From Deltaproteobacteria bacterium (lineage in GTDB: Bacteria; Desulfobacterota; Dissulfuribacteria; Dissulfuribacterales; UBA3076): a DNA stretch of 64,000 nucleotides. Under the pieces are notes generated by a model. It did no database searches and had not been told where the DNA came from. It worked only from the letters and a program-made list of their open reading frames with translations. The stretch covers positions 37,948-101,947 of the forward strand of contig JAGYNZ010000001.1 of the NCBI GenBank assembly GCA_018399745.1, in the 5' to 3' direction. Below, in pieces: positions 2,019-11,560 of the stretch; positions within the stretch are counted from its first letter, which is position 1; each line of letters opens with the position of its first letter. The position numbers were made by a program, and so were the translations under genes.

Positions 2019-2420
2019 CTGGCAGAGGATGGACTTCGCTGACAGGAGAAACAGAATTTACAGGAGTTTTAAATTCTTTTCCTTTTGGTTATCTTGTCAT
2101 CAGAGACAAGCTATAGATATCTATCTATAGATCTCAACCATATCTGTATCACCAAACCTGAATCAAGATTATTATTATCATAGCCTGTTAAGAGGGCTGC
2201 GACCAATCTCTTCCTCACTCACTCATCGGGAACTCTCAATCCCTCCGTAATCCAATTATTTACGAACACTGGCATAGCCGGTAGCTTGTATATAGAAAAG
2301 CCTTAACATCTTAAATAATCTGGTCGATAAAAGCTTTAGAGCTTTAAATCCAGGAGTCTTGGTTGAGAGTTTACGCATCTTTGATACAAAATTGCTTTTT
2401 ATCTTTTGTGGAGTTTAACC

Positions 2421-2822
2421 GTGGCTGATCTCATACTGACCAAATCGGTCCTGGATAAAACCAAAATAGAGATAGAAAATGCCCTCATCAGGGCGGGCGT
2501 CAACACTGTTCTTCTCATTGACGAAGCAGGCAATGTTGTGACTGCTTGCAAGCATAAAAATTGCGATCTTGATACCACTTCTCTCGCTGCACTGGCAGCA
2601 GCAAACTTTGGTGTCACTGCTCAAATTGCAAAGCTGATAGGAGAAGATGATTTTGCACTCCTGTTCCACAAAGGGAAAAAAGATAGCATACACTTTGCAC
2701 GAATAAGTAATGATTTAATTCTGGTAACAATATTTGGAGAAAATGTCTCTCTTGGCTTGGTAAGATTAAGGGTCGCACAATTGGCAAAAACCATAGAAAA
2801 GGCATTTGCCCAAATTAATTAA
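2421..2822 (+). CDS. mglB: Roadblock/LC7 protein, MglB-like GTPase-activating protein
   Basis: LAALAAANF, FHKGKKDSIH and LGLVRL motifs; directly upstream of mglA. Start moved to GTG at 2421, preceded by GGAG. Confidence 0.88.
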   Translation: MADLILTKSVLDKTKIEIENALIRAGVNTVLLIDEAGNVVTACKHKNCDLDTTSLAALAAANFGVTAQIAKLIGEDDFALLFHKGKKDSIHFARISNDLILVTIFGENVSLGLVRLRVAQLAKTIEKAFAQIN

Positions 2823-2824
2823 CT

Positions 2825-3442
2825 ATGGCGCTAATAAATCTGAGCAAAAAAGAAATACACTGCAAGATAGTATACTACGGTCCCGGGCGATGCGGTAAGA
2901 CCACAAATTTGCTCTATATATACAATGCAATGAATAATCAGGCCCGAAGCAAAATGCTGACTATTGAGACAAAAGGTGAAAGGACACTTTTTTTTGACCT
3001 TCTTCCCTTAAATCTGGGGAAAATAAATGGCTTTAATATAAGGATTCAGCTTTACACGGTACCAGGCCAAATCATTTATAAGGCTACCAGGAAACTGGTC
3101 CTTAAGGGGGTTGATGGTCTGGTTTTTGTTGCTGACAGTCTTAAAGTACGTCAGGCGAAAAATATGGAAAGTCTCCAAGATCTACACCACAATCTCCTTG
3201 ACTACAATCTAAACACAGAAGAAATCCCAATCATTTTGCAATTCAACAAACGTGATCTTGTAAATACAACCATACCGACGTTGACTAAAGAAGAACTTGA
3301 AATAGATCTGAACAGCGAACTTAATACAAAGGTTTTTGAAGCAGCGGCTATTAAAGGGATAGGGGTCTTTGAAACCCTGAAAGAAATAAGTAAAAGGACT
3401 ATCCAATATGTGGCAACAAAGCATCTTTCAATAAATCATTAA
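2825..3442 (+). CDS. mglA: MglA-family small GTPase
   Basis: KIVYYGPGRCGKTTN (P-loop), ERTLFFD, LYTVPGQ, NKRDL and EAAAIKG motifs. Confidence 0.93.
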   Translation: MALINLSKKEIHCKIVYYGPGRCGKTTNLLYIYNAMNNQARSKMLTIETKGERTLFFDLLPLNLGKINGFNIRIQLYTVPGQIIYKATRKLVLKGVDGLVFVADSLKVRQAKNMESLQDLHHNLLDYNLNTEEIPIILQFNKRDLVNTTIPTLTKEELEIDLNSELNTKVFEAAAIKGIGVFETLKEISKRTIQYVATKHLSINH

Positions 3443-3541: not shown

Positions 3542-5194
3542 ATGGATCAGACAAAGAAAAATCCTGATCCCGAAGACTTCGCTAGAAACGTAGAAAGTAC
3601 TATTGACGAACTGTTTTGTGTATCACGACAGATAGAAATAGACCCTTTAACTAATGAAGTTAAGGATTTATCCCAAGATAAAACAGATAAGGAGCAGGGA
3701 TTTCAGGTTCTAGACCAAGGGAAAAAGCACTCTGAAGAAATCAAGCTTTCAGATACCATAGAGACGGAAGAACCTGCTAAACAGATAGAAAATTCCATTA
3801 ACGAAAAGATATTGGAATCAGGTTCAAATTTGGAGCTTGAAGAAAAAGATACTAAAGATGTAAATTTGGAACAACAGTTCAGCCAACTCAACCAACTGTT
3901 GTTGACCTTGGAGTGGGAGGTCGACCAGAAACAAGCGGTATCAGCTAAAAACCTGGTAGAGACAATACGGAAAAATCCAGAGATAGAGGCAGACCAAAAA
4001 CTTCAAGAACTGCTGAATCTTATGACAAAACTCCTTGAAGGGATAGCGGATCATCCTGAAAAAATGCCTACTTTCAGCCCCGAGGTCCTGAAAAGAGGTC
4101 TTGACACCTTTAAAAATCTTGTCTGGAATGAAGGACAGGACCCAAACACTAAAAATGAGGCCTTTAGATCCGTAAAAAAAGAACTTGAATCAGCTATAGA
4201 CATGGATGTATCTGAAATTGGCCACCAAGTATCCGGTAAGGCGGTTTCAGAACACCTGATTGAAGTGGACGATACACTTGATTCAGCTAAAGAACATGAG
4301 GCACAAAATAACGCCCAAAAAGAGAAATCCTCCAATCACCAGGGAGATATCAATAGTTCCATTTCAGAGATAAACATACAAGAAAAAGCGGCGGCCATTG
4401 AGCCGGAGTTCCCTGAACACTTGGTGCTTTTACGTGCAGTCAAATCCCATATCAAAATCCTTGATGACTGCATAAAATACATCCTACCAGTTGAAAAGCT
4501 CCTTGCCCAAACTCAGGGGATGGAAAAACTGCATCATTTTCAGCGAAATATTAAAAACAGGCTTGAAGAACAAAAAAAGATATTGGAAAATGCATTAACG
4601 GGCGATTATGAACCATCTTCTAATATGAGTAATTATGCTGCTCAACGGATTGAAGATATTACCGTAGAAATTGACAAAGCAAAAACGCCCCCGGTGATCA
4701 CTCCCTGCCCCTGGAATGAACTTTTGACTGGCCAATGGAATCAAAAACAAGTTGCATTTATACCTGAACATGTCGCATTTGCAGGGCCGCTCCCCTTTTG
4801 GACAAAAAAAGGACTTAAAAATTCAAAGACATTTAAATTAAAAAAACTCGGGACCTGGCCATGGACAAAAATCCAGCCATTGATGCATGGGAAATTGTCA
4901 AATCAGAAAGAATCAGAGCTTATAAAGCTCGAATTTCCCATACTACAAAAATCGATTTCAACTTCCAACCACTCTCAGTCCTCAGACCCGACCGTATTAA
5001 TCCTATCCAACGAGAATAAAGGACTTGTTCTCATGCTGGACTCTCCGTTAAAAACCATTTCTATAACTCCTGAGTATTCCTGGAAACCATCCACAAAGAA
5101 AGAAGGACAATGGGTTGGCAATCTGATTATAGACAACAAACAAATATACGTGGCAACGATGGAAAGCCTTTTAAATACACTGCCTAATGAATAA
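3542..5194 (+). CDS. Hypothetical protein: acidic/helical N-terminal part, possible degenerate CheW-like C-terminal domain
   Basis: 550-aa ORF with AAGGAG RBS; overlaps the next gene by 8 nt. The CheW resemblance (beta-rich end, GLVLMLDSP...GNLIIDNKQIYVATMESLL) is by eye only. Confidence 0.8.
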   Translation: MDQTKKNPDPEDFARNVESTIDELFCVSRQIEIDPLTNEVKDLSQDKTDKEQGFQVLDQGKKHSEEIKLSDTIETEEPAKQIENSINEKILESGSNLELEEKDTKDVNLEQQFSQLNQLLLTLEWEVDQKQAVSAKNLVETIRKNPEIEADQKLQELLNLMTKLLEGIADHPEKMPTFSPEVLKRGLDTFKNLVWNEGQDPNTKNEAFRSVKKELESAIDMDVSEIGHQVSGKAVSEHLIEVDDTLDSAKEHEAQNNAQKEKSSNHQGDINSSISEINIQEKAAAIEPEFPEHLVLLRAVKSHIKILDDCIKYILPVEKLLAQTQGMEKLHHFQRNIKNRLEEQKKILENALTGDYEPSSNMSNYAAQRIEDITVEIDKAKTPPVITPCPWNELLTGQWNQKQVAFIPEHVAFAGPLPFWTKKGLKNSKTFKLKKLGTWPWTKIQPLMHGKLSNQKESELIKLEFPILQKSISTSNHSQSSDPTVLILSNENKGLVLMLDSPLKTISITPEYSWKPSTKKEGQWVGNLIIDNKQIYVATMESLLNTLPNE

Positions 5195-7544
5195 TACTTC
5201 AACTGCAAACAATTTAAAATCCATGCTGGCGGAAGCCGATCTTTATTATAGTCAAGGTCTTAATGAAGAGGCCCGCATTATCTGTCTAAAACTTCTGCAA
5301 ATGACCGATGATAAATCTAATCCTGTCCGTAGTGAAATAGAATCCCGCCTGAAAAAACTTCAGTTCGAGGGTATGGGGACGGTACAATCAGGAGAGATAA
5401 ATTTCACCGCCAGCCTTGAAGATCTTAAACCTGAAGACCTCAAAGAATATCAGGACAATAAGTTCAGTAGTTGTATAGGTCTCATAGATACCGGCTTTTA
5501 TTTGGAGGCCATAGAAGAATTAAAAACCTTACTTCAAGCAGAATACAGACCAGGGGTAACTCGAGCAAAAATCGGAGAATCATATCTACAGGTAGATATG
5601 CCCTTTGAGGCACTTGAATATTTAGAAAAAGCGCTTGAGGATACGGAACTGTCCAAAGAAGAAAGGCTGGATGTACTATATCAGCTAGCACTCACCCATG
5701 AGCGAACCGGTGCGATGCCTAAGGCTATTGAGGCTCTTGAGCAAATCATCCGCCTTGATCCTGCATTTAGAAATGCCAAACAGAGGCTTGAGGGCCTTTC
5801 CCAAACTGCTCAGGAGTATGGCCGTTTCTATTATCTGATTCGCAATCAGTCCATCTCCAAGGAACAGCTTAGCAGGACCAAAGAACTGGCCAAACAAGGG
5901 AAAAAATCCATAGAAAGTATTCTGCTAAACCAGTTTGGCGTAGACAAAATGGAACTCGGCCGCTCACTTAGCGAATATTACCGATGCCCCTTTGTGGAAT
6001 TTGACGAACTGGAAGTAGGAAGCACGCCTTCTTGCGTACGCGGTATCAAAGAACACTTTTTCAGGACCAATTCCTGTGCACCTATTCGCGAAAAAGCAGG
6101 GACCCTTATAGTTGCATTAGATAACCCCCATGATCTGGCAAAGACAGACAATATTAGAAGGGTCCTTAAGGCCAAAAATTTCCAGTTTGCGGTAGCACTG
6201 AAGGAAGATATCAACAGATTCATAGACTATTTCTATGGAAAATATTCTGCAGAAGGATCTGATGATGATGTATTTGAGCAACTGGAACTGGTTGAAGAGG
6301 ATACGGAATTCGAGGAAGAAGATGATAGCTTAGCATCGGAAGCGGATAGTGTAGTAGTCCAGATAGCCAATAAAACTATAGAAGATGCCTTTCAGCGCAG
6401 GGCCTCCGATATACACATTGAAAGCCTGACAGGCAAAAGGGGTGCCCTGGTCCGTTTCAGGATTGATGGCGATTGCATGCGCTATCAGACTATCCCGTAT
6501 AACTATAAGCGAGGCCTATTGTCCAGAATCAAGATCATGTCTAACCTTGACATCGCCGAAAAACGACTGCCCCAGGACGGAAAAATAAAATTCAAGACTC
6601 GATCTGGCAAGCCCCTGGAACTGCGCGTAGCCACACTTCCTACGACGGAAGGCAATGAAGATGTCGTACTGAGGTTACTGACCTCTTCTGATGCTATGCC
6701 AATTGATCGCATAGGGCTCCTTGATCAAAACCTTAGTCAACTAAAGCAGCTTCTGCAATTGCCGTATGGGCTTATATTGGCAGTCGGTCCTACCGGATCA
6801 GGAAAAACAACGAGCCTGCATTCTGCGCTTGGCTATATAAATCGACCTGAGAAAAAAATCTGGACAGCCGAAGATCCTGTAGAAATCATGCAGGAGGGAT
6901 TGCGCCAGGTACAGGTAAAACCCCACATTGGCCTTACCTTTGCTCGGGTTCTCAGGGCCTTTTTAAGGGCTGATCCGGATGTAATAATGGTAGGCGAAAC
7001 GCGAGATGAAGAGACTGCTATAACAGCAATAGAGGCATCCCTTACCGGGCATTTAGTCTTTTCAACCCTTCATACCAATTCCGCCCCTGAGACAGTTACA
7101 AGGCTTTTAGGGATGGGAATGGACCCATTCAACTTTGCTGACGCCCTTTTAGGCGTCTTGGCACAAAGGCTTGTGAAAAGACTTTGCCCCAAGTGTCGTG
7201 AGGCATATCAGCCTGATGACAACGAAAAAAAACATATTTTACACGAATACGGATTTCATCCAACTCATCCTCTAGAACTGTCAAAGCTCAATGAAACAAC
7301 ACTTTATAGGCCCAAGGGCTGCCAATATTGCAACAGGACCGGTTTCAGAGGCAGGCTTGCGATCCACGAACTACTCATATCCGATGACGGTCTTAAAAAA
7401 CTTATACAAGAGAAAAGGCCAGTGGGAGAGATACGGGAGTATGTAATGAACCAGGGAATGTTTACCCTGAAACAAGACGGTATACAAAAGGTATTAAACG
7501 GAGAAACAGATCTCAAGCAGATTAAAGCAGCCTGCATAAGGTAA
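5187..7544 (+). CDS. PilB/GspE-family secretion/pilus ATPase with N-terminal TPR repeats
   Basis: Walker A GPTGSGKTT, Asp box TAEDPVE, Walker B DPDVIMVGETRD, His box STLHTNSAP, CPKC...CQYC Zn site; TPR-like helices at about aa 85-205. Confidence 0.92.
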   Translation: MNNTSTANNLKSMLAEADLYYSQGLNEEARIICLKLLQMTDDKSNPVRSEIESRLKKLQFEGMGTVQSGEINFTASLEDLKPEDLKEYQDNKFSSCIGLIDTGFYLEAIEELKTLLQAEYRPGVTRAKIGESYLQVDMPFEALEYLEKALEDTELSKEERLDVLYQLALTHERTGAMPKAIEALEQIIRLDPAFRNAKQRLEGLSQTAQEYGRFYYLIRNQSISKEQLSRTKELAKQGKKSIESILLNQFGVDKMELGRSLSEYYRCPFVEFDELEVGSTPSCVRGIKEHFFRTNSCAPIREKAGTLIVALDNPHDLAKTDNIRRVLKAKNFQFAVALKEDINRFIDYFYGKYSAEGSDDDVFEQLELVEEDTEFEEEDDSLASEADSVVVQIANKTIEDAFQRRASDIHIESLTGKRGALVRFRIDGDCMRYQTIPYNYKRGLLSRIKIMSNLDIAEKRLPQDGKIKFKTRSGKPLELRVATLPTTEGNEDVVLRLLTSSDAMPIDRIGLLDQNLSQLKQLLQLPYGLILAVGPTGSGKTTSLHSALGYINRPEKKIWTAEDPVEIMQEGLRQVQVKPHIGLTFARVLRAFLRADPDVIMVGETRDEETAITAIEASLTGHLVFSTLHTNSAPETVTRLLGMGMDPFNFADALLGVLAQRLVKRLCPKCREAYQPDDNEKKHILHEYGFHPTHPLELSKLNETTLYRPKGCQYCNRTGFRGRLAIHELLISDDGLKKLIQEKRPVGEIREYVMNQGMFTLKQDGIQKVLNGETDLKQIKAACIR

Positions 7545-10032: not shown

Positions 10033-11250
10033 TTAACTGTTGCCAGTTGAATCTTTCGGTACGACTGATCCTTCTTCATATGTGAAATTTTCAACCGATA
10101 TCTGGTTCACAGACTGATAAACCTTACTTAAAGGGACATTAAACCGGCGTGCCACCTCTTTGCATGCCTCATACTCAGGAGAAATTATGGACTGCCCATC
10201 AGGCCTTGTGATCAATTTGGCTCGCACATTTCCCCAATTAGTTGGAACCATGCCATTGCTTCTAGGCAAAATGTACCGAAAGCACCTGTTCAGACGTACG
10301 CCTGAAGTAGTAGATTCCTCAAAGAGGATCTTACTGAGATTATATTCATGACCAGGTTTTGCTAAGACTGTAATTTCAATACCTGGACGATTTTTTTTCA
10401 TATGTATTGGACACATTACAACGTCCAGGGCACCTGCAGCAAATAAGCATTCTATAAGATATTCATACCACTCAGGGTTCATATCATCTATATAGCTCTT
10501 TAATTCTACTACAACCCGTCTCTTTTCCGATGTCTGGGCTTCACCGAGCCAGATACGAAGGAGGTTGGGCCATTGGAGAAGATCCCCTGAACCAGCGCCG
10601 TATCCGATTTTTTCCACTTTCATCTCGGGAAAGGTGCTGAAATGATCTGTCAGAACCTTTATCAAGGCACTTCCAGTTGGTGTAACAAGTTCCCATTCTC
10701 CATCTACTCCATAAGTAGGCACATTTTTTAGCAAATCAGCACAGGCAGGAGCAGGCAGAGGCAGTCTGCCGTGTTCACAATTTATCCATCCTCTGGTTAC
10801 AGGAATAGGAGAACAGTAAATCTTTCCAACAGAAAAATAGTTTAAACCGCTAATGGTCCCCAGAATATCCACCAATGTATCTGCAGCTCCGATTTCATGA
10901 AAATGGACCTCTTCCAATGAACAGCCGTGTACCTTGGCCTCTGCATGCGCAAGGCTATAAAACACCTTTAGCGAAGGTCGAATTATTTCAGGTCGCAAAT
11001 CAGATCTTTCAAGAATTGCTTCCACGTCATGAAGATTCCTGAATGGCTGTAGACCAGATGTGGAGACCCTGACTTGAATACCCTTTATCCCTTTCCTTTT
11101 CGTTTCCTGGATCTCAACTGATGTATTCTTAAGACCCAATCTCTCTGGTAGAGATATTAATTCCTCCTCAGGCCATCCTGCATCAATAAGCGCCCCTAAA
11201 AACATATCTCCGCTGATCCCGGAAAAACAATCAAGGAAGGCTTGCCTCAT
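10033..11250 (-). CDS. larC: Nickel pincer cofactor biosynthesis protein LarC
   Basis: DCFSGISGDMFLGAL, VHFHEIGAAD, HGRLPLPAPA, IGYGAG and MKKNRPG motifs. Confidence 0.9.
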   Translation of the reverse strand: MRQAFLDCFSGISGDMFLGALIDAGWPEEELISLPERLGLKNTSVEIQETKRKGIKGIQVRVSTSGLQPFRNLHDVEAILERSDLRPEIIRPSLKVFYSLAHAEAKVHGCSLEEVHFHEIGAADTLVDILGTISGLNYFSVGKIYCSPIPVTRGWINCEHGRLPLPAPACADLLKNVPTYGVDGEWELVTPTGSALIKVLTDHFSTFPEMKVEKIGYGAGSGDLLQWPNLLRIWLGEAQTSEKRRVVVELKSYIDDMNPEWYEYLIECLFAAGALDVVMCPIHMKKNRPGIEITVLAKPGHEYNLSKILFEESTTSGVRLNRCFRYILPRSNGMVPTNWGNVRAKLITRPDGQSIISPEYEACKEVARRFNVPLSKVYQSVNQISVENFTYEEGSVVPKDSTGNS

Positions 11251-11270
11251 TTATGTTACTCCTTAAGGTT

Positions 11271-11560
11271 CTATATCTTCAAATACCAAAGGCCTAAACT
11301 GATTAAACCGAAAAAAGCAATTGCAGATTTTATCGTAATACGAAATATGGAATAAGCAAAACCTGTCCATTTCTCAAACAGATAGCGCCGGATAAAACTC
11401 TTTGCCTCTGCGGAAAAAGGAAATATTAGGAGATGAAGGACCTGCGGTTAAGATAAAGGAGAAAGGCGCCAAATTACCCTGAGAAAGAACATATTCTCGT
11501 ACGGATTCTCTATTATTAAAATGCATCTAACAGACCAAACCGGCTGGAACATGGCTCATA
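11271..11560 (-). pseudogene. Eroded TVP38/TMEM64 (DedA/SNARE-associated family) membrane-protein gene remnant
   Basis: Manual translation gives NRESVREYVLSQGNLAPFSFIL, a frameshift, then QVLHLLIFPFSAEAKSFIRRYLFEKWTGFAYSIFRITIKSAIAF. This matches the family pattern as I recall it (QILQVVIAPIPGEATGFIGGYLFG.W.GFLYSTIGLTLGS.LAF). In-frame TAG at 11529-11527; 5' boundary approximate. Confidence 0.6.

What the first reader, a model, noticed from the sequence alone, without database searches (positions are those of the whole stretch)
5187..7544. PilB/GspE ATPase with an N-terminal TPR module in place of an intact MshEN c-di-GMP motif
Seen: about 200 extra N-terminal residues with TPR helices ending LYQLALTHERTG..A..ALEQIIRLDPAFRNAKQRL; all ATPase motifs and the Zn site are intact. 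The MshEN-position sequence (RFYYLIRNQSISKEQL) lacks the RLGxxL...G consensus. Inference: input comes from a protein partner through the TPR rather than from c-di-GMP. The TPR resembles, from recall, the C-terminal TPRs of SgmX-like proteins.
Basis: partly seen in the sequence, partly recalled or inferred. Interest (0 to 1): 0.68.

Follow-up and report, generated by a model that had tools for sequence, protein, structure and literature searches.

The report
MglA-linked pilus motor with TPR head
This gene encodes a type IV pilus assembly ATPase with a fused TPR protein-docking module and a degraded c-di-GMP site, and it always sits in one operon with the polarity GTPase pair MglB/MglA, which suggests a built-in version of the adaptor link that Myxococcus makes through a separate protein.

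Summary
ORF 5187-7544 encodes a 785-aa PilB-family ATPase. All catalytic motifs and the Zn tetracysteine are invariant across 68 orthologues. About 205 extra N-terminal residues form a helical/TPR module. The MshEN c-di-GMP domain keeps its fold but fails every motif test: 12.6 bits against a 38-bit cut-off, and 0 of 68 orthologues match the published relaxed motif. A paralogue in the same genome passes both tests.

The gene is the last of a four-gene cassette: mglB, mglA, X (550 aa, CheW-like C-terminus), TPR-pilB. In all 61 related loci with enough upstream DNA, mglA and X are present, and mglB in 60. The family occurs in at least 116 Thermodesulfobacteriota species and forms one clade.

One complete relative genome encodes PilC and PilM, but its only strong PilB/GspE-type matches are a GspE and this protein. 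That points to the pilus extension motor.

Best reading: a pilus motor controlled by MglA/MglB/X through its TPR and remodelled MshEN head rather than by c-di-GMP.

The claimed specific resemblance to SgmX TPRs is not supported. No binding was tested. I found no description in the literature searched. I rate it a new variant of a known kind.

The parts
2406..2822 (+). mglB: Roadblock/LC7 GTPase-activating protein, 138 aa, TTG start
   Evidence: Pfam Robl_LC7 E 1.5e-10. NCBIfam MglB E 2e-14. 74.6 bits to M. xanthus MglB structures. Only copy in the genome.
2825..3442 (+). mglA: Ras-like polarity GTPase, 205 aa, with GPGRCGKTT, RTLFFD (intrinsic Arg finger) and LYTVPGQ
   Evidence: 207 bits over residues 1-193 to M. 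xanthus MglA and 193 bits to T. thermophilus MglA. Only copy in the genome.
3542..5194 (+). X: 550-aa protein with no family match; its stop overlaps the start of the ATPase gene by 8 nt
   Evidence: No Pfam or NCBIfam hit. Present in 61 of 61 loci between mglA and TPR-pilB. Evolves fast: 22-33% identity outside the near relatives.
3851..4201 (+). X residues 104-220: confident helical bundle with invariant W125 and E126
   Evidence: AF2 pLDDT about 90. Weak Foldseek similarity to CheA P1 (E 4e-3 to 9e-2, TM 0.47-0.72 normalised to the target). No conserved His, so it is not a phosphotransfer domain.
4412..4600 (+). X residues 291-353: long helical hairpin, the best conserved sequence block of X
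   Evidence: AF2 helices 291-323 and 328-353, pLDDT about 90. Conservation profile.
4709..5176 (+). X residues 390-545: CheW/CheA-P5-like beta domain
   Evidence: Foldseek against PDB: CheW and CheA-P5, E 5e-4 to 3e-3, TM 0.55-0.61 normalised to the target. Pfam CheW does not match, and hhalign to the genome's own CheA is not significant.
5187..7544 (+). TPR-PilB: 785-aa PilB-family ATPase
5187..5801 (+). N-terminal module, residues 1-205: three helices (4-60), a disordered linker (61-80), then three TPR-like helix pairs (82-190) and a capping helix
   Evidence: Pfam TPR_2/TPR_12. AF2 helices with pLDDT 75-91. Invariant E16, Y20, G24, L25, A29, L99, G103, A108, L115, E172 and L184.
5820..5984 (+). 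Remodelled MshEN_N (ND0) four-helix bundle, residues 212-266, in the position of the tandem c-di-GMP motifs
   Evidence: NF053729 gives 12.6 bits against a cut-off of 38. Relaxed motif matches 0 of 68. Family-conserved YGRFYYLIRN and KKSIESILLNQFG. AF2 shows one continuous helix 197-219 joining the TPR cap to MshEN helix 1.
5979..6239 (+). MshEN_C (ND1) alpha/beta sub-domain, residues 265-351
   Evidence: Pfam PF05157 E 1.3e-14. Aligned to Geobacter and Myxococcus PilB N-terminal domains.
6243..6335 (+). Acidic disordered linker, residues 353-383
   Evidence: AF2 pLDDT about 30-40.
6339..7523 (+). N2 plus C-terminal ATPase core, residues 385-779
   Evidence: Pfam T2SSE E 1e-118. Foldseek to Thermus PilF and Geobacter PilB cores, TM 0.83-0.86 normalised to the target, 42-44% identity.
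6786..6812 (+). Walker A GPTGSGKTT (residues 534-542)
   Evidence: Invariant in 68 orthologues.
7185..7331 (+). Tetracysteine Zn site, CPKC (667-670) and CQYC (712-715)
   Evidence: All four Cys invariant in 68 orthologues.

Best explanation
The gene encodes the type IVa pilus extension ATPase of this lineage, or one of them. It forms a self-contained control module with the three genes upstream of it.

Shown:
- It is a catalytically intact PilB-clade ATPase.
- It has an N-terminal TPR module, and its MshEN c-di-GMP motifs are replaced by a different, conserved sequence.
- It is always encoded in one tight operon with mglB, mglA and X.

Inferred:
- MglA-GTP switches or localises the motor by docking on the TPR/remodelled MshEN head. 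It may do so directly, or through the CheW-like scaffold X.
- MglB, the GAP, turns this off.
- Pilus extension is therefore gated by the polarity GTPase and not by c-di-GMP.
- The predicted continuous helix from the TPR cap into MshEN helix 1 would pass a binding event rigidly to the N-terminal domain. In other PilBs that domain controls hexamer activity.
- In effect the SgmX-type TPR adaptor of Myxococcus is built into the motor.
For: ATPase identity:
- Pfam T2SSE E 1e-118.
- The best solved-structure match over the full PilB length is M. xanthus PilB at 388 bits, then Geobacter PilB at 376 bits. Both are higher than for the two other PilB-like paralogues in the genome.
- Catalytic and Zn residues are invariant.

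Role as the pilus motor:
- The genome has pilMNOPQ, an orphan pilC, pilA, minor pilins with PilY1, and two pilT genes.
- The complete relative genome G039 has a GspF and an orphan PilC, plus PilM. Its only matches to PF00437 at E <= 1e-60 are a GspE inside a T2SS cluster and the TPR-PilB.
- All TPR-PilBs form one short-branched clade (support 97/92), apart from GspE and the long-branched paralogues.

Link to MglA:
- Of 61 loci with enough upstream DNA, 61 carry mglA, 61 carry X and 60 carry mglB. Median gaps are 43 and 10 bp.
- The linkage persists in most relatives at about 40% identity.
- All 14 sampled genomes of the same order carry the family.
- mglA and mglB are single-copy in this genome and lie only here.

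Pilus-regulator context:
- A REC-PATAN gene lies directly downstream in 22 of 58 loci.
- PilZ and REC-PATAN genes occur in the longer operons of distant relatives.
- PATAN regulators bind PilB1 in Synechocystis (10.1101/2021.06.11.447907).

Precedents:
- MglA-GTP binds the three C-terminal TPRs of SgmX, and SgmX is needed for polar PilB (PMC11580455, PMC7519303).
- MglA binds the TPR protein Bd2492 in Bdellovibrio (PMC3983030).
- In Xanthomonas, a PilB N-terminal domain that lacks the c-di-GMP motifs binds a protein, PilZ (PMC8389850).

Loss of the c-di-GMP motif. A G11I change abolishes binding in MshE (PMC5013675).
Against: - No interaction was tested, and no complex could be modelled with these tools.
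- The TPR module shows no specific similarity to SgmX.
- X sits between mglA and the ATPase and could be the only partner of either protein.
- In this genome two other PilB-like ATPases (contigs C9 and C78) could serve the single PilC. The PilB equivalog model scores 505.6, below its cut-off of 675.65.
- Two distant copies (L091 and L100) have no mglAB within 8 kb.
- The AF2 inter-domain geometry is uncertain (pTM 0.45).
- The ATPase count for G039 used an E <= 1e-60 threshold.
Confidence: 0.55

Rival explanations
1. The TPR head does not bind MglA. It docks X (the CheW-like scaffold), a PATAN response regulator or a polar landmark. MglA/MglB then act upstream on X, so the GTPase reaches the motor only indirectly. 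This resembles Frz input to MglA and then SgmX in Myxococcus, but with X as the hub.
For: - X is as strictly conserved in the cassette as mglA (61 of 61), and its stop overlaps the ATPase start.
- X has three confident folded domains, including a CheW/P5-like one.
- The genome encodes MCP, CheW and CheA proteins that X could contact.
- PATAN-REC genes follow TPR-pilB in 22 of 58 loci.
Against: - One relative (L094) has mglA directly abutting TPR-pilB with no X.
- Distant relatives replace X with other genes yet keep mglBA and TPR-PilB.
- The known MglA effectors in pilus control are TPR proteins (PMC11580455, PMC3983030).
Confidence: 0.25
2. The ATPase is not the pilus extension motor. It powers or regulates something else: a pseudopilus or secretion function for short Geobacter-type pilins, or a signalling role like that of M. 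xanthus PilB in exopolysaccharide control. One of the other paralogues would then extend the pili.
For: - The genome has four PilB/GspE ATPases but only two platform proteins.
- The pilin is a short 74-aa Geobacter-type precursor.
- The PilB equivalog cut-off is not reached.
- No pilus structural gene lies in the cassette.
Against: - In G039 the TPR-PilB is the only candidate partner for PilC and PilM.
- It is the slowest-evolving and most PilB-like of the paralogues.
- Its neighbours in relatives are pilus regulators, PATAN and PilZ.
Confidence: 0.12
3. The remodelled MshEN domain still binds c-di-GMP or another nucleotide in a non-canonical way. The TPR then serves only for oligomerisation or polar anchoring.
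For: - The 53-residue domain is still weakly recognisable: 20 of 22 members match NF053729 at E <= 1, best 1.2e-6.
- K-Y-G precedes motif I, and the hydrophobic pattern and terminal Gln are partly kept.
- The replacement residues are strongly conserved, which fits a ligand site.
Against: - Both signature Gly positions are replaced (Phe or Tyr in motif I, Glu in motif II). G11I alone abolishes binding in MshE (PMC5013675).
- The relaxed motif matches 0 of 68.
- The AF2 model extends helix 1 upstream through the place where the nucleotide would sit.
Confidence: 0.08

Closest known systems
MglA-GTP / SgmX / PilB pathway of Myxococcus xanthus (with FrzS and SopA)
   Same: - MglA and MglB orthologues are present (207 and 75 bits to the M. 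xanthus proteins).
- A TPR module and a PilB-clade ATPase are present.
- In SgmX about three TPRs bind MglA-GTP, and SgmX brings PilB to the pole (PMC11580455).
   Different: - Here the TPR is part of PilB itself, about 3 repeats and not 14.
- It shows no specific sequence similarity to SgmX.
- No SgmX match was found in 21 related genomes, though that search had no positive control.
- All the genes are in one operon with an extra CheW-like protein X.
- M. xanthus PilB keeps its c-di-GMP motifs.
MglA-Bd2492 (TPR) hub of Bdellovibrio bacteriovorus
   Same: A TPR protein is the direct MglA partner in control of type IV pili at one pole (PMC3983030).
   Different: - Bd2492 is a separate protein and an SgmX homologue.
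- Bdellovibrio lacks MglB, whereas here MglB is conserved in the operon.
PilB-PilZ-FimX complex of Xanthomonas citri and Pseudomonas
   Same: The PilB N-terminal ND0/ND1 (MshEN-like) domain lacks the c-di-GMP motifs and works as a protein-docking site that controls the motor (PMC8389850).
   Different: - The partner there is PilZ, with FimX as an indirect c-di-GMP sensor.
- There is no TPR fusion and no small GTPase.
MshE of Vibrio cholerae and PilF of Thermus thermophilus (c-di-GMP-binding MshEN/GSPII ATPases)
   Same: Same ATPase family and the same N-terminal domain fold. PilF also has an extended N-terminus.
   Different: - Those proteins bind c-di-GMP through the tandem 24-residue motif (PMC5013675, PMC11731258), which is not met here.
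- The paralogue on contig C9 of this genome is the MshE/PilF-like one.
PATAN-CheY regulators binding PilB1 in Synechocystis
   Same: Regulator proteins act directly on the extension ATPase to set the direction of piliation. REC-PATAN genes flank TPR-pilB in many relatives.
   Different: No PATAN gene lies next to the cassette in this window, and cyanobacterial PilB1 has no TPR.

Membership tests
PilB/GspE secretion ATPase superfamily (Pfam T2SSE PF00437) | Profile match above cut-off with Walker A, Walker B/Asp box and His box | tested here: met
   396.5 bits against a cut-off of 24.9. The motifs are invariant in 68 orthologues. The fold matches PilF and PilB cores at TM 0.83-0.86 normalised to the target.
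PilB/GspE secretion ATPase superfamily (Pfam T2SSE PF00437) | Tetracysteine Zn-binding motif of the PilB/GspE branch | tested here: met
   C667, C670, C712 and C715 are invariant.
Type IVa pilus assembly ATPase PilB (NCBIfam TIGR02538 equivalog) | Score above the curated equivalog cut-off | tested here: not met
   505.6 bits against a cut-off of 675.65. It is nevertheless the top-scoring model and aligns over profile positions 5-561. None of the four paralogues in the genome reaches the cut-off.
Type IVa pilus assembly ATPase PilB (function) | Works with PilC/PilM of a T4aP machine as the extension motor | tested here: inconclusive
   In the complete genome G039 it is the only non-GspE match to PF00437 at E <= 1e-60, beside an orphan PilC and a PilM. 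In this genome two other paralogues exist. No experiment was done.
MshEN c-di-GMP receptor domain | MshEN fold (Pfam PF05157) | tested here: met
   54.3 bits against a cut-off of 23.1, residues 265-351. AF2 predicts a four-helix bundle followed by an alpha/beta sub-domain.
MshEN c-di-GMP receptor domain | Tandem 24-residue motif RLGxxhhxxGhhxxxxLxxxLxxQ (the relaxed pattern of Wang et al. 2016) | tested here: not met
   0 of 68 family members match, while the C9 paralogue matches twice. RLG is replaced by GRF, and RIG by SIE.
MshEN c-di-GMP receptor domain | NCBIfam NF053729 c-di-GMP_motif above 38 bits | tested here: not met
   12.6 bits, E 0.086. It was not listed at E <= 0.01 for the full protein. 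The C9 paralogue scores 153 bits.
MshEN c-di-GMP receptor domain | Binds c-di-GMP | not testable with these tools
   Needs ITC or DRaCALA on residues 1-375.
TPR repeat | TPR profile match and paired antiparallel helices | tested here: met
   TPR_2 scores 32.8 against 27, and TPR_12 scores 30.8 against 30.1. AF2 helix pairs are 82-102/105-117, 122-135/139-149 and 157-173/177-190.
MglA/MglB polarity module | MglA orthologue with the intrinsic Arg finger, TxxGQ and a P-loop, and an adjacent Roadblock GAP | tested here: met
   207 bits to M. xanthus MglA. RTLFFD, LYTVPGQ and GPGRCGKTT are visible in the alignment. MglB scores 74.6 bits.
SgmX-type MglA effector | Specific homology of the TPR module to SgmX | tested here: not met
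   NF052243 matches 3 of 22 sequences, best E 3.5e-4, and is weaker than many unrelated TPR families. The nearest non-family hits that were checked are generic multi-TPR proteins.
SgmX-type MglA effector | Nucleotide-dependent binding of MglA-GTP | not testable with these tools
   No complex prediction or assay was available.
CheW-like domain (for protein X) | Pfam CheW PF01584 match | tested here: not met
   No hit for 63 orthologues and none in the six-frame genome search. hhalign to the genome's own CheA gives probability 0.2%.
CheW-like domain (for protein X) | CheW/P5 double beta-barrel fold | tested here: inconclusive
   Foldseek to CheW and CheA-P5 gives E 5e-4 to 3e-3 and TM 0.55-0.61 normalised to the target, on an AF2 domain with pLDDT 80-94.

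The most novel reading that the evidence does not exclude
A small Ras-like GTPase binds a secretion-superfamily ATPase directly. MglA-GTP docks on PilB's own TPR head and switches the hexamer on, with no SgmX-type adaptor. X, a kinase-less CheA-like scaffold (P1-like bundle, dimerisation hairpin, P5/CheW-like domain), plugs chemoreceptor arrays into the same motor. The four-gene cassette would then be a portable module running from chemosensing through polarity to the motor. It would also be a natural gene-fusion clue to the unknown step between SgmX and PilB in Myxococcus.
Probability: 0.3. Interest if true: 0.8.

Novelty: new variant of a known kind. Interest (0 to 1): 0.62.

Why it matters
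How MglA and its TPR effector SgmX act on PilB is an open step in the best-studied bacterial polarity system. Published work states that the mechanism is unknown and that no direct SgmX-PilB or MglA-PilB contact has been detected (PMC11580455, PMC7519303).

A lineage in which a TPR module is fused to PilB, and which keeps mglB and mglA in the same operon across at least 116 species, gives independent evolutionary evidence that the TPR adaptor and the motor work as one unit. It also offers a minimal four-protein system that could be reconstituted in vitro.

The family includes cultured strains, among them Desulfurivibrio dismutans AMeS2.

It shows too that c-di-GMP control of a PilB can be swapped for GTPase control while the MshEN fold is kept.

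Tried and rejected
- SgmX-specific similarity: rejected.
- SgmX search in 21 related genomes found nothing, but the controls contained no known carrier, so this is uninformative.
- Pfam and NCBIfam on X and its 63 orthologues gave no family. hhalign of X against the genome's own CheA was not significant.
- Foldseek of the whole TPR-PilB model returned only ATPase cores and says nothing about the TPR.
- The promoter and terminator scan was at chance level.
- The idea that the degenerate motif is simple decay was rejected, because the replacement residues are conserved across the family.
- The idea that TPR-PilB is a recent, lineage-specific oddity was rejected. It forms one clade across many families of the phylum.
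- Literature searches for MglA with PilB and Desulfobulb*, or for an N-terminal TPR on PilB, found no description. The survey of MglA gene neighbourhoods mentions only occasional PATAN neighbours (PMC4316618).

Full report
**1. Observation**

ORF 5187-7544 (+) is open and encodes 785 aa. Pfam finds T2SSE at residues 385-779 (E 1e-118), MshEN PF05157 at 265-351 (54.3 bits) and TPR models at 128-200.

The NCBIfam PilB profile aligns its positions 5-561 to residues 216-782. A complete PilB is therefore preceded by about 210 extra residues.

A 68-orthologue alignment shows these as invariant: Walker A, the Asp/Walker B box, the His box, and the four Zn-binding cysteines C667, C670, C712 and C715.

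AlphaFold2 with that alignment gives mean pLDDT 79 and pTM 0.45. It predicts:
- three N-terminal helices (4-60);
- a disordered linker (61-80);
- three TPR-like helix pairs (82-190);
- a capping helix that runs without a break (197-219) into the first helix of the MshEN four-helix bundle;
- the alpha/beta MshEN_C sub-domain;
- a disordered acidic linker (353-383);
- the ATPase core.

The core superposes on Thermus PilF and Geobacter PilB (TM 0.83-0.86 normalised to the target, 42-44% identity).

**2. The c-di-GMP motif**

Wang et al. (PMC5013675) define two 24-residue motifs, RLGxxhhxxGhhxxxxLxxxLxxQ. They show that G11I abolishes binding in MshE.

Residues 212-266 read GRFYYLIRNQSISKEQL... 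and KKSIESILLNQFGVDKMELGRSLSEYY. In the alignment to M. xanthus PilB, R-L-G becomes G-R-F and R-I-G becomes S-I-E.

Three tests fail:
- The published relaxed pattern matches 0 of 68 family members.
- The NCBIfam c-di-GMP_motif model gives 12.6 bits against a cut-off of 38.
- That model is absent at E <= 0.01 for the full protein.

The paralogue on contig C9 serves as an internal positive control. It matches the pattern and scores 153 bits.

The replacement residues are themselves conserved: G212, F214, Y215, L217, K240, L246, G258, E263. The domain has been remodelled, not left to decay.

Loss of these motifs is not new in itself. Xanthomonas and Pseudomonas PilB lack them, and there the domain binds PilZ (PMC8389850).

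**3. Context in the window**

The gene is the last of four co-directional genes:
- mglB, 2406-2822;
- mglA, 2825-3442;
- X, 3542-5194, whose stop overlaps the ATPase start by 8 nt;
- TPR-pilB.

Upstream is a transketolase gene and a 388-bp gap. Downstream are convergent genes.

MglA scores 207 bits to M. xanthus MglA and carries the P-loop, the intrinsic arginine (RTLFFD) and TVPGQ. MglB scores 74.6 bits to M. xanthus MglB. Both genes are single-copy in the 2.65-Mb genome.

**4. Conservation of the cassette**

A search with the N-terminal 310 residues found relatives in 116 species genomes, and 80 loci were fetched. They include:
- SEEP-SRB2 MAGs;
- MAGs labelled Thermodesulfatator or Thermodesulfobacteriaceae;
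- Desulfurivibrionaceae, including the cultured Desulfurivibrio dismutans AMeS2;
- other Desulfobulbia.

Of 61 loci with at least 3.4 kb upstream, 61 have mglA, 61 have X and 60 have mglB. All lie in the same order, with median gaps of 43 and 10 bp.

In an even sample of 401 genomes of the phylum, 29 carry the family. That count includes all 14 sampled genomes of the window's order.

I fetched 12 loci from that sample.
- Nine carry mglA on the same strand upstream, among them most of the relatives at about 40% identity. mglB was detected in seven of the nine; the other two loci end just beyond mglA.
- In some, X is replaced by a longer gene set. In L095 this comprises two unknowns, a Zn-ribbon/Cache/HAMP protein, an unknown, a REC-PATAN regulator and another unknown. 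A PilZ gene follows the ATPase.
- In one (L094), mglA directly abuts the ATPase gene.
- Two copies (L091, L100) have no mglAB within 8 kb.
- In L096, mglB and mglA are present but only the TPR part of the query matched.

In the Desulfobulbia branch a REC-PATAN gene follows TPR-pilB directly (22 of 58 loci).

A tree of the ATPase cores puts all TPR-PilBs in one short-branched clade (support 97/92). They are separate from GspE and from the long-branched paralogues, so the fusion arose once.

**5. Which machine does it drive?**

The genome encodes:
- a T2SS cluster with its own GspE on contig C23;
- pilMNOPQ on C88;
- an orphan pilC on C11;
- a short Geobacter-type pilin on C4;
- minor pilins with PilY1 on C20;
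- two pilT genes on C56;
- two further PilB-like ATPases, on C9 (many MshEN motifs) and C78 (TfpB-like).

The TPR-PilB is the paralogue most similar to the characterised M. xanthus and Geobacter PilBs. It scores 388/376 bits, against 338/350 for C9 and 346/366 for C78.

In the complete genome G039 the only PilB/GspE matches at E <= 1e-60 are a GspE inside a T2SS cluster and the TPR-PilB. That genome also has an orphan PilC and a PilM. There the TPR-PilB is the only candidate extension motor.

**6. Protein X**

X has no family match, either for itself or for 62 orthologues. It evolves fast. AF2 predicts three confident domains:
- a helical bundle (104-220);
- a helical hairpin (291-353);
- a beta domain (390-545).

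Foldseek matches the beta domain to CheW and CheA-P5 (E 5e-4 to 3e-3). It matches the bundle weakly to CheA-P1.

Sequence-level comparison with the genome's own CheA is not significant. The CheW-like assignment therefore rests on predicted structure alone.

The genome does encode MCP, CheW and CheA proteins, and also a flagellar export gate.

**7. The SgmX claim**

The TPR profile hits 18,047 proteins. The nearest non-family hits that I checked are generic multi-TPR proteins.

The NCBIfam SgmX model matches only 3 of 22 N-terminal sequences (best E 3.5e-4). It ranks behind MamA, PilW, Tgl, BatC, Ycf3 and LapB.

There is no specific relationship. The parallel with SgmX is functional only. SgmX uses three C-terminal TPRs to bind MglA-GTP and is needed for polar PilB by an unknown mechanism, with no direct contact to PilB detected (PMC11580455; PMC7519303). 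In Bdellovibrio, too, MglA binds a TPR protein (PMC3983030).

**8. Interpretation**

The most economical reading is a pilus extension motor whose regulatory head has exchanged c-di-GMP sensing for control by the MglA/MglB switch. Control would act directly on the TPR head or through X.

What is shown: the domain anatomy, the motif loss, the operon conservation, the clade structure and the sole-candidate argument in G039.

What is inferred: every protein contact, the direction of regulation, and the loss of nucleotide binding.

I found no description of this architecture or cassette in the searched literature. The main survey of MglA neighbourhoods reports only variable contexts with occasional PATAN genes (PMC4316618).

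**9. Limits**

No complex modelling was available and no RNA data could be obtained. Many loci come from MAGs. AF2 inter-domain packing is uncertain. The SgmX-absence search lacked a positive control.

Two earlier notes from this scan describe the same cassette and a CheW-like C-terminus for X. They agree with this report but are not independent evidence.

Noticed in passing
own genome, outside the window: G000:C27, 729-aa ORF covering 10887-11276 (+): The genome's CheA carries a canonical tandem MshEN c-di-GMP motif (KKLGEILVENGVIAQESVEESLKVVQANPQKKIGEALIDEGKVSSKQVSQALRKQ). It lies between the N-terminal region and the dimerisation/kinase part, so this CheA may bind c-di-GMP.
   Followed up: no
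own genome, outside the window: G000:C9:35699-38146 (-): An 815-aa PilB-like paralogue has a long N-terminal array of MshEN c-di-GMP motifs (NF053729 153 bits). It lies next to a 949-aa ORF and sits on a very long branch in the ATPase tree.
   Followed up: partly
window 3542-5194: Protein X looks like a CheA without a kinase: a P1-like bundle, a helical hairpin and a P5/CheW-like domain. It has no sequence-level family and has invariant W125 and E126.
   Followed up: partly
L059-L088, e.g. L070:10402-11073 (Desulfurivibrio dismutans): In the Desulfobulbia branch a REC-PATAN (DUF4388) response-regulator gene follows TPR-pilB directly, in 22 of 58 loci. In several loci of the other branch a PATAN-like gene lies about 3 kb upstream on the opposite strand.
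   Followed up: partly
L095:1874-10991: A distant relative has a longer operon: mglB, mglA, two unknowns, a Zn-ribbon/Cache/HAMP protein, an unknown, REC-PATAN, an unknown, TPR-pilB, PilZ.
   Followed up: partly
L094:3339-5886, and L091 / L100: In one relative, mglA abuts TPR-pilB with no X between them. Genome G338 has two TPR-PilB copies, one without mglAB nearby, and G077 has a copy without mglAB within 8 kb.
   Followed up: no
own genome, outside the window: G000:C4:61881-62535: A short Geobacter-type pilin (74-aa precursor, FTLVELMIVVAIIGILAAIAIPQF) is followed by a 131-aa ORF that resembles a PilA-N/PilA-C pair.
   Followed up: no
own genome, outside the window: G000:C78:75216-76955 (+): An orphan 579-aa ATPase scores best on the TfpB model (623 bits, below its cut-off of 850). 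No pilus or secretion genes lie nearby.
   Followed up: no
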